A DNA stretch of 64,000 nucleotides, taken from the human T2T-CHM13v2.0 reference genome, Homo sapiens. Positions 5,122 through 5,250 of this stretch are shown here, in pieces (the stretch's first letter is position 1; each line of letters starts with the position of its first letter). The DNA is taken from assembly GCF_009914755.1 (NCBI RefSeq), contig NC_060925.1. One strand, written 5' to 3'. The position numbers and the translations under genes are program-made. The notes beneath the pieces are model-generated. The model was not told where the DNA came from. It saw nothing but the letters and a program-made list of their open reading frames with translations, and did not search any database.

Positions 5122-5250
5122 TTAGATCTTTAGCTTATGCGACATATATCTCTTGGTTTTTTTTTTCAGGGTCTTCTGTAGCTTTTGTATCTCATTTTGA
5201 AGTTGGGTACTTTCACCTTGGCATCTCTCCTTTAGTACTCGGGCCTGTTC
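5122..5250 (-). CDS. GBP3: GBP3 exon 11 coding part ([10 protein letters not shown]...[15 protein letters not shown])
   Basis: Acceptor tttttag|GAA; 129 nt to TAA. Confidence 0.95.
   Translation of the reverse strand, partial: EQARVLKERCQGESTQLQNEIQKLQKTLKKKTKRYMSHKLKI

What the first reader, a model, noticed from the sequence alone, without database searches (positions are those of the whole stretch)
5122..5170. Hidden CaaX box one base out of frame behind a coding A10 tract: a possible prenylation switch for GBP3
Seen: GBP3 exon 11 reads CTG AAA AAA AAA ACC AAG AGA TAT ATG TCG CAT AAG CTA AAG ATC TAA (A10 at 5157-5166) and gives [15 protein letters not shown] with no CaaX. Removing one A gives CTG AAA AAA AAA CCA AGA GAT ATA TGT CGC ATA AGC TAA, i.e. 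[12 protein letters not shown]. The stretch TGT CGC ATA AGC TAA AGA (5130-5144) aligns base for base with GBP1's TGT ACC ATA AGC TAA AGA (CTIS*). The product would be 592 aa with Cys589, as in GBP1, preceded by a basic patch. Established: GBP1 needs C-terminal farnesylation plus its polybasic RRR motif to coat LPS and membranes, while GBP3 is regarded as unprenylated; X=Ser and a2=Ile fit farnesyltransferase substrates. Inference: GBP3 lost prenylation through a +1 homopolymer expansion but kept the box intact. A germline A9 allele, somatic MSI slippage, Pol II slippage or +1 ribosome sliding on poly-lysine codons could each produce a membrane-targeting GBP3. Because this is the last exon, NMD would not remove such a transcript, so an apparent loss-of-function frameshift (p.T585fs) could be a gain of function. 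I cannot confirm whether this has been described.
Basis: partly seen in the sequence, partly recalled or inferred. Interest (0 to 1): 0.92.

Follow-up and report, generated by a model that had tools for sequence, protein, structure and literature searches.

The report
Out-of-frame fossil prenylation box in GBP3
The human immune gene GBP3 still carries, one base out of frame behind a run of ten A's, the lipid-anchor signal of its parent gene GBP1, but all monkeys and apes examined read the gene in the frame without the signal, so it looks like an old evolutionary leftover and not a working switch.

Summary
GBP3's last exon (minus strand) has an A10 tract at window 5157-5166. The annotated frame ends [17 protein letters not shown]-stop. 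The frame reached by losing one base reads PRDICRIS-stop, and its TGT..TAA (5130-5144) is homologous to GBP1's CTIS-stop (16 of 18 bases identical).

- GBP1, GBP1P1, GBP2 and GBP5 share one spacing here. GBP3 alone has a net +7 nt before the Cys codon, not a demonstrable +1 A-run slip. It also has an 8-nt insertion that supplies its present stop.
- All 35 GBP3-type proteins recovered (20 simian species, New World monkeys included) end in the human frame (..KLKI). None of the 121 proteins examined joins a GBP3 stem to a CaaX. The frameshift therefore predates the New World/Old World split.
- The hidden Cys codon cannot exist in Aotus or Piliocolobus.
- A run as long as A10 is possible only in apes, some colobines and Chlorocebus.
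- The box is no better conserved than the adjacent 3'UTR.
- No RNA structure follows the tract.
- Flag-GBP3 expressed from cDNA was reported as exclusively cytosolic.

Best reading: an inert relic. It remains true and untested that a 1-bp deletion would give a 592-aa GBP3 whose end fits published farnesyltransferase rules. I found no paper describing this.

The parts
5122..5250 (-). Coding part of GBP3's last exon; annotated frame ends ...[19 protein letters not shown]-stop
   Evidence: RefSeq rows given with the finding; translation; CDS sum 1788 nt
5157..5166 (-). A10 tract (Lys582-Lys584 codons plus the first base of the Thr585 codon), the slippage-prone site
   Evidence: direct reading
5130..5144 (-). 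Relic CaaX box plus relic stop, one base out of frame: TGT CGC ATA AGC TAA (Cys-Arg-Ile-Ser-stop); hidden Cys codon at 5142-5144
   Evidence: translation by reference; alignment to GBP1 and GBP1P1; 16 of 18 identical over 5127-5144
5166..5172 (-). Seven GBP3-only bases as MAFFT places them (placement ambiguous within about 5145-5175); the net +7 nt puts the box out of frame
   Evidence: GBP1, GBP1P1, GBP2 and GBP5 all lack them
5118..5125 (-). Eight GBP3-only bases that contain the present stop codon (5122-5124); 6 of 8 identical to the preceding 8 nt (5126-5133), so possibly a decayed tandem duplication that copied the old stop into the new frame (inference)
50736..50750 (-). GBP1's working CaaX box and stop (Cys-Thr-Ile-Ser-stop), the homolog of the relic

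Best explanation
The hidden box is a molecular fossil. GBP3 arose in the simian stem lineage as a copy of GBP1 (literature). Early on, before New World and Old World primates split, GBP3-specific indels shifted the reading frame of the last 11 codons: a net +7 nt ahead of the Cys codon and an 8-nt insertion just after the old stop. The GBP1-type Cys-a-a-X-stop is now read as Met-Ser-His-Lys-Leu-Lys-Ile-stop. GBP3 has kept that unprenylated frame in every simian examined. It works as a cytosolic protein that prenylated GBPs carry to their compartments by heterodimerization (literature). The Lys-rich stretch ahead of the relic varies between species. The uninterrupted A10 is simply its state in humans. 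In the reference state the box does nothing. A 1-nt loss in the tract (in DNA or in RNA) would, as an accident and not by design, give a 592-aa GBP3 ending in a basic patch plus Cys-Arg-Ile-Ser. That end is a plausible farnesyltransferase substrate. Shown: the sequence facts, the paralog spacing, and the shared frame in 20 simian species. Inferred: the timing, the inertness, and the farnesylation of the slipped product.
For: Sequence and frames. GBP3-only indels against four paralogs. GBP3 as a simian duplicate of GBP1: passages of PMC12486975 and PMC9005921, which cite Corte-Real 2021; that paper itself is not held. Orthologs: of 121 proteins examined (the 120 best of 914 hits, plus P0015), 35 are GBP3-type and all 35 end ..KLKI in the human register; 0 of 121 join a GBP3 stem to a CaaX; 81 have Cys at -4. 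The 35 come from 20 species, including Sapajus, Cebus and Aotus (names). Tree with the last 25 aa removed (26 rows): the GBP3-type rows, New World rows included, form a clade (94/100) inside a simian GBP1+GBP3 clade (100/99), and New World GBP1 rows lie outside it. No preservation of the hidden codons: Gly (Aotus) or Ile (Piliocolobus) at the Met position cannot supply the T-G of a TGT. The run is not conserved: E, G, R or N replace a Lys in Macaca, Papio, Piliocolobus, Trachypithecus, Semnopithecus and the New World monkeys, capping the run at 5-9 A's. The one length change seen, Chlorocebus, adds a whole Lys codon. Box identity equals the UTR background. No downstream RNA structure, z = -0.07. 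[quoted passage not shown]
Against: Nothing here measures slippage. A small fraction of slipped transcripts or proteins would escape a fractionation western blot. The protein database is clustered at 90% identity and only 120 of 914 hits were listed, so rare alleles or isoforms ending in the box could be hidden inside clusters (P0085 stands for 40 members, P0091 for 33). No primate DNA was available, so the state of the hidden codons in most species is inferred from amino acids only. In Papio and Sapajus/Cebus a hidden Cys remains possible. No lineage has fixed a +/-1 change at a slippage-prone tract in roughly 40 My, so the frame is under selection. That is compatible with the relic view but also with selection on something I did not see. 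Saimiri P0136 stops right after ..RKKK, unexplained.
Confidence: 0.85

Rival explanations
1. Accidental but consequential gain of function. The A10 tract loses one base in mismatch-repair-deficient tumours or in rare germline alleles. The resulting GBP3 (Lys-Lys-Lys, then PRDICRIS) is farnesylated and reaches membranes or bacterial surfaces on its own. A variant annotated as loss of function would then change the protein's location instead of destroying it.
For: The frame arithmetic is right. Both stops lie in the last exon, so nonsense-mediated decay is not expected (general knowledge). In passages of PMC10320760, a1 tolerates many residues, Ile at a2 is a positive pattern, and the main restrictions (D/E/K/R at a2; K/P/R at X) are not hit by C-R-I-S. 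GBP3 is close to GBP1: a chimp GBP3-tailed entry is 520/576 identical to GBP1, though that entry may be chimeric. Coding A10 tracts being frequent deletion targets in such tumours is recalled, not tested.
Against: No paper in the searched library links GBP3 to microsatellite instability or to a frameshift at this site. These are main-text searches only; supplements are closed and population tables are not on hand. Farnesylation alone is not enough for bacterial targeting: GBP2 carrying GBP1's CTIS was not recruited without interferon (passages of 10.1101/2021.06.16.448779). The patch before the hidden Cys contains Pro and Asp and differs from GBP1's Arg triplet. The FTase rules cited come from yeast enzyme screens.
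Confidence: 0.15
2. Programmed recoding. The A10 tract is a maintained slippage site (transcriptional or ribosomal) that deliberately produces a minor prenylated GBP3 isoform, a built-in prenylation switch.
For: A run of ten A's over Lys AAA codons is the kind of sequence on which polymerases and ribosomes slip (passages of PMC5263891; abstract of PMC5009743). The alternative frame ends in a motif with a known function.
Against: The run is interrupted or shorter in most simian lineages, and the hidden Cys is impossible in two. No stimulatory structure follows. The usual -1 ribosomal slip, or a +1-nt transcript, leads to NQEIYVA*; the box needs the opposite shift. Expressed GBP-3 was reported as exclusively cytosolic. 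Tracks of 9-12 A's had only modest effects in the reporter work read (15-35% loss in E. coli).
Confidence: 0.03
3. The new tail is the functional element. The frameshift was selected because it removed prenylation and created a new C-terminus (..[10 protein letters not shown]), and the overlap with the old box is incidental.
For: The stop position and KLKI are kept in 35 of 35 GBP3-type tails. The only length change seen is a whole codon. The first 28 residues of exon 11 are 26-28 of 28 identical between apes and New World monkeys, although the same segment is only 52 of 75 nt identical to GBP1. That suggests a burst of change followed by constraint. Reviews call GBP3 a case of neofunctionalisation (passage of PMC9005921).
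Against: The last 14 residues are less conserved (10-11 of 14 between apes and New World monkeys) than the whole protein (88-89%). The tail itself therefore looks weakly constrained. No functional data on the tail were found.
Confidence: 0.3

Closest known systems
GBP1 C-terminus (polybasic motif plus CaaX box CTIS)
   Same: Direct homolog: same exon, same position. 16 of 18 bases are identical over box, stop and the next codon. A basic stretch comes before the Cys in both.
   Different: In GBP1 the box is in frame, is conserved in the GBP1-labelled primate proteins seen (tails; 81 of 121 examined proteins have Cys at -4, 44 of them CTIS), and is needed for membrane and bacterial targeting (passages of PMC7240152). 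In GBP3 it is out of frame in all 35 orthologous tails.
OAS1 p46/p42: a human variant that decides whether an interferon-induced protein carries a CaaX box
   Same: An innate-immunity protein whose prenylation and membrane targeting depend on which C-terminus a genetic variant gives (abstract of PMC8357416).
   Different: In OAS1 a common splice-site SNP selects the isoform, and prenylation and antiviral effect are demonstrated. For GBP3 the toggling variant is hypothetical and nothing about the product is shown.
Coding mononucleotide tracts as frameshift hot spots in mismatch-repair-deficient tumours (e.g. the A10 of TGFBR2; recalled, not from a call)
   Same: An A10 tract inside a coding exon; a 1-bp deletion gives a new C-terminus.
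   Different: Those frameshifts usually truncate and inactivate. Here the new end is only 8 residues, lies in the last exon and recreates an ancestral targeting motif. No tumour data for GBP3 were found.
PolyA tracks / programmed slippage sites
   Same: Consecutive AAA Lys codons.
   Different: No conservation of the tract, no stimulator structure, and the frequent slip direction gives a different frame.

Membership tests
CaaX prenylation signal (farnesyltransferase substrate) | Cys at the fourth position from the C-terminus of the translated protein | tested here: not met
   The annotated frame ends ..HKLKI. Human GBP3 entries P0156-P0158 end the same way. Cys at -4 exists only in the frame reached by a 1-nt loss.
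CaaX prenylation signal (farnesyltransferase substrate) | Permitted residues at a1, a2 and X | tested here: met
   This applies to the hidden frame only. C-R-I-S has Ile at a2 (a positive pattern), Ser at X (not among the restricted K/P/R), and Arg at the tolerant a1 position. The comparison is with passages of PMC10320760, which report yeast FTase data.
CaaX prenylation signal (farnesyltransferase substrate) | Demonstrated lipid modification | not testable with these tools
   Needs labelling with a farnesyl analogue. The only related datum is that wild-type Flag-GBP-3 is cytosolic (PMC2998424).
Programmed frameshift / transcriptional slippage (recoding) site | Slippery homopolymer at the shift site | tested here: met
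   A10 at 5157-5166.
Programmed frameshift / transcriptional slippage (recoding) site | Conservation of the slippery site and of the alternative-frame ORF among orthologs | tested here: not met
   8 tail types in 35 proteins. A Lys is replaced in 6 of the 8 types. The hidden Cys is impossible in 2 types. This rests on amino-acid-level inference, because no primate DNA was available.
Programmed frameshift / transcriptional slippage (recoding) site | Stimulatory RNA structure downstream | tested here: not met
   The 121-nt fold gives -14.5 kcal/mol against a shuffle mean of -14.28, z = -0.07.
Programmed frameshift / transcriptional slippage (recoding) site | Detected trans-frame product | not testable with these tools
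GBP3 orthologous group (simian duplicate of GBP1) | Groups with primate GBP3 and not with GBP1 when the tail is excluded; New World monkey members present | tested here: met
   Tree of 26 rows without the last 25 aa: GBP3-type clade 94/100, including Aotus, Sapajus and Cebus. Caveats: one chimp row labelled GBP2 (P0114) also falls in it, and several forks are unresolved.
Coding microsatellite target of mismatch-repair deficiency | Recurrent 1-bp indels at the tract in MSI-high tumours | not testable with these tools
   The tract length qualifies. No paper was found. Supplementary tables, where such lists usually sit, are closed.

The most novel reading that the evidence does not exclude
A one-base loss in GBP3's A10 tract, frequent in mismatch-repair-deficient cells and perhaps present as a rare germline allele or in a small share of transcripts, yields a farnesylated GBP3. 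This protein reaches membranes or Gram-negative bacteria without GBP1. A variant filed as loss of function would then be a change or gain of function in an interferon-induced defence protein, analogous to the OAS1 p46 case.
Probability: 0.12. Interest if true: 0.6.

Novelty: new member of a known kind. Interest (0 to 1): 0.35.

Why it matters
For evolution, it shows how GBP3 lost prenylation: by frame-shifting indels in the simian stem lineage, not by mutation of the box. The old signal and its stop are still legible in the DNA. For variant interpretation, it flags one specific frameshift (first changed residue Thr585) whose predicted product is not a truncated protein. It is a full-length GBP3 with an ancestral-type lipidation signal, and it would escape nonsense-mediated decay. 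If that product is farnesylated, it offers a natural experiment on what prenylation alone adds to a GBP1-like protein. The present evidence gives no reason to think cells use it.

Tried and rejected
1. A +1 slip in the A run as the cause of the frameshift. Not demonstrable: the difference from four paralogs is net +7 nt, and two alignments of similar quality place the extra bases differently (MAFFT placement; my hand alignment that pairs GBP1's Arg triplet with GBP3's Lys triplet scores 14 of 27 against 17 of 27).

2. Selective preservation of the box. Rejected as unsupported.

3. A frameshift-stimulating RNA structure. None found.

4. Literature.
- GBP3+CaaX+frameshift: 1 paper, on pig GBP5.
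- GBP3+CaaX+primates+duplication: 4 papers hold the terms, 3 listed.
- GBP3+polybasic motif+GBP1+primate: 4.
- The Kohler title: 22 hold the terms, 10 listed.
- GBP3+microsatellite instability+mononucleotide+frameshift: 0.
- GBP3+frameshift: 31 hold the terms, 30 listed. I opened four of them. None concerns this tract, and the preprint is about mouse Gbp3.
- GBP3+CTIS: 3.
- PolyA-track terms: 43 hold at least 2 of 3 terms, 10 listed.
- GBP3+microsatellite instability+indel: 0.
- GBP3+CaaX+loss phrases: 6 hold at least 3 of 6 terms, 5 listed.
No listed or opened paper describes an out-of-frame CaaX in GBP3. The claim 'not in print' is limited to that library's main texts. Corte-Real 2021 (Mol Immunol) is not held, and the supplements, which include Kohler's alignments, are closed.

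5. Primate DNA, population variant tables, reads and proteomics were not available. The hidden codons of other species are therefore inferred from amino acids.

6. The tree used 26 of the 121 proteins, chosen by me to give one row per species and paralog. Many forks are open, and some chimp entries look chimeric.

Full report
OBSERVATION. On the minus strand, the last coding exon of GBP3 reads CTG, ten A's (window 5157-5166), then CC AAG AGA TAT ATG TCG CAT AAG CTA AAG ATC TAA, with the stop at 5122-5124. The annotated frame gives ...[19 protein letters not shown]. The frame that a 1-nt loss in the run would open reads PRDICRIS* (translated by reference). Its Cys codon lies at 5142-5144 and its stop at 5130-5132. 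GBP1 ends ...[11 protein letters not shown]. GBP3's annotated CDS is 1788 nt, i.e. 595 aa, and GBP1 has 592 aa. Over the 18 nt TGT..AGA (5127-5144), GBP3 and GBP1 are identical at 16 positions, and both differences lie in the a1 codon. A gain of one base, or a -1 ribosomal slip, would instead give NQEIYVA*.

HOW THE FRAME WAS LOST. I aligned the exon-11 regions of GBP3, GBP1, GBP2, GBP5 and a GBP1P1 exon-11 homolog found at chr1:89269364-89269617. GBP1, GBP1P1, GBP2 and GBP5 share one spacing at this point before the Cys codon (GBP2 has a separate 3-nt insertion nearer the Cys codon). GBP3 alone has seven extra bases there. MAFFT places them at 5166-5172, but the region is too diverged to fix their position. 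GBP3 alone also has eight extra bases at 5118-5125, and today's stop codon lies inside them. Those eight bases match the preceding eight (5126-5133) at 6 of 8 positions. They may therefore be a decayed tandem duplication that carried a copy of the old stop into the new frame; this is my inference from direct reading. The difference is net +7, which equals +1 modulo 3. A single-A expansion is only one of several possible histories.

AGE AND FATE IN PRIMATES. Reviews state that GBP3 arose by duplication of GBP1 and occurs only in Simiiformes (passages of PMC12486975 and PMC9005921). The primary paper is not held. No primate DNA was available, so I used the protein word search in three steps.
- One search gave 914 hits at E <= 1e-100 among 1826 candidates. 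120 were listed, and 6174 candidates without a named source were left out.
- I examined those 120 plus P0015, a Pygathrix fragment, 121 proteins in all.
- 35 are GBP3-type and all 35 end ..KLKI in the human register. 81 have Cys at -4 (44 CTIS, 11 CVIS, and others).
- 5 are other: a truncated PDB construct P0145, two truncated or alternatively spliced models P0162 and P0172, Saimiri P0136 ending ..TLRKKK, and mink P0185 ending ..SMCHKLKT.
- None of the 121 joins a GBP3-type stem (..LQKTL) to a CaaX end.

The 35 GBP3-type tails fall into 8 types:
- [16 protein letters not shown], 17 proteins: Homo, Pan troglodytes, Pan paniscus, Gorilla, two Pongo species, two Rhinopithecus species, Colobus, Pygathrix.
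- TLEKK.., 5 proteins: Macaca.
- TLGKKTKRYISHKLKI, 4 proteins: Piliocolobus.
- TLKNK.., 2 proteins: Trachypithecus, Semnopithecus.
- TLGKKNKRYMSRKLKI, 2 proteins: Papio.
- TLRKKSKRYVFHKLKI, 2 proteins: Sapajus, Cebus.
- TLRKKTKRYGFHKLKI, 2 proteins: Aotus.
- One tail with a fourth Lys: Chlorocebus.

I built a tree of 26 rows with the last 25 residues removed. It places the New World GBP3-type rows with the catarrhine ones (94/100), inside a simian GBP1+GBP3 clade (100/99). New World GBP1 rows form their own clade outside it. Caveats: many forks are unresolved; one chimp row labelled GBP2 falls among the GBP3 rows; and some chimp entries look chimeric, with residues 121-300 of P0095 identical to GBP1. 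The simplest reading is one frameshift before the platyrrhine/catarrhine split.

IS THE HIDDEN BOX OR THE TRACT PRESERVED? The hidden TGT is made of the last two bases of the Met codon and the first base of the Ser codon.
- Ile (Piliocolobus) has no codon ending in TG, and Gly (Aotus) has G at its second codon position. Neither can supply a TGT at that place in the same register.
- Papio (His to Arg) and Sapajus/Cebus (Val-Phe) could still have a Cys there.
- A run of ten A's needs Lys-Lys-Lys-Thr. The other tails cap the run at 9 (Glu; Gly..Asn), 8 (Gly; Arg) or 5 (Lys-Asn-Lys).
- Only Chlorocebus could have more, up to 13, and its change is a whole codon.

Against GBP1, the box's 16 of 18 identity is no more than the neighbouring 3'UTR gives: 104 of 120 over 5111-4992, with two 30-nt blocks at 29 of 30. 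P(>=16/18) is 0.63-0.91 for 88-94% identity. By contrast, the coding part of exon 11 just upstream is only 52 of 75 identical to GBP1. That same segment is 26-28 of 28 residues identical between ape and New World monkey GBP3, whereas the last 14 residues are only 10-11 of 14 identical and the whole protein 88-89%. So GBP3's C-terminal helix changed fast early and has since been held. The short tail is loosely constrained, but its frame and stop are kept.

DOES ANYTHING PROMOTE SLIPPAGE INTO THE BOX? The 121 nt from the tract onward fold no better than shuffles (z = -0.07). Work on polyA tracks reports length-dependent stalling and frameshifting, with modest effects at 9-12 A's (passages of PMC5263891). 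Slippage is also a recognised source of trans-frame products in general (abstract of PMC5009743). [quoted passage not shown] Any slipped, membrane-bound fraction was therefore below detection in that assay.

WOULD THE SLIPPED PRODUCT BE PRENYLATED AND ACTIVE? In a comprehensive yeast farnesyltransferase screen, a1 tolerates most residues and Ile at a2 is a positive pattern. The main restrictions are D/E/K/R at a2 and K/P/R at X (passages of PMC10320760). C-R-I-S breaks none of them, so farnesylation is plausible but untested. Targeting is a further question. GBP1 needs both its CaaX box and its Arg triplet (passages of PMC7240152). GBP2 given GBP1's CTIS was not recruited to bacteria without interferon, whereas GBP1's last 14 residues sufficed on GBP2 for Shigella (passages of 10.1101/2021.06.16.448779). 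GBP3's hidden end has Lys-Lys-Lys-Pro-Arg-Asp-Ile before the Cys. That is basic but not the same.

COMPARISON WITH WHAT IS KNOWN, AND NOVELTY. The feature is the out-of-frame homolog of GBP1's CaaX box. In concept it resembles OAS1, where a splice-site SNP decides whether an interferon-induced protein carries a prenylation signal, with proven consequences (abstract of PMC8357416). It also resembles coding A10 tracts that frameshift in mismatch-repair-deficient tumours (recalled). It fails the tests for a programmed recoding site: conservation and a stimulator structure were tested and not met. In ten literature searches I found no description of this relic or of a frameshift at this tract. The limits are main texts only, closed supplements, and the key primate GBP paper not being held. 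I rate it a new member of a known kind: a legible relic motif left behind by a frameshift in a young paralog, next to a slippage-prone tract.

VERDICT. The most likely account (about 0.85) is an inert fossil, fixed out of frame for roughly the whole history of simian GBP3. The A10 tract is a lineage-specific state of a variable Lys stretch. The residual idea worth a bench test is that the 1-bp deletion allele gives a farnesylated, relocalised GBP3; my estimate is about 0.12-0.15 that this is true and consequential. Interest 0.35.

Noticed in passing
L005:1480-1780 (G000 chr1:89269364-89269617, + strand): An exon-11 homolog of GBP1 lies about 1.2 kb beyond the annotated 3' end of the pseudogene GBP1P1 (89268185). 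It has the GBP1 spacing, and its box reads Cys-Thr-Ile-Asn-stop.
   Followed up: partly
window 5022-5081 (GBP3 3'UTR) versus window 50640-50700 (GBP1 3'UTR): The proximal 3'UTR blocks are 58 of 60 identical between GBP3 and GBP1 and are also shared with GBP1P1. The coding part of exon 11 just upstream is only 52 of 75 identical. This could be a conserved UTR element or gene conversion.
   Followed up: no
window 5118-5133: GBP3's present stop codon lies in an 8-nt GBP3-only insertion that matches the preceding 8 nt at 6 of 8 positions. It may be a tandem duplication that copied the ancestral stop into the new frame.
   Followed up: partly
protein P0185 (Neovison vison, labelled GBP3): It ends ..SMCHKLKT, which resembles a CaaX region read one base out of frame, as in simian GBP3. 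This is either an independent frameshift in a mink paralog or a sequence or model error.
   Followed up: no
proteins P0095, P0099, P0150, P0114, P0139 (Pan troglodytes entries): The 597-aa chimp entries carry a GBP3 tail. P0095, the one compared, has a middle part identical to human GBP1 (residues 121-300). Of the entries labelled GBP2 with a CNIL tail, P0114 (the one included) groups with GBP3 in the tree. These look like chimeric transcript models or gene conversion.
   Followed up: partly
protein P0136 (Saimiri boliviensis GBP3, 502 aa): The model stops directly after ..TLRKKK, at the Lys stretch. Neither a +1 nor a -1 shift of a Sapajus-like sequence would give that end. It could be a truncated model or a real change at the tract.
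   Followed up: no
window 11480-11676 versus 56221-56423: GBP3's fourth coding exon is 6 nt shorter than GBP1's (197 against 203 nt). This is why a GBP3 with the box in frame would have exactly GBP1's length, 592 aa.
   Followed up: no
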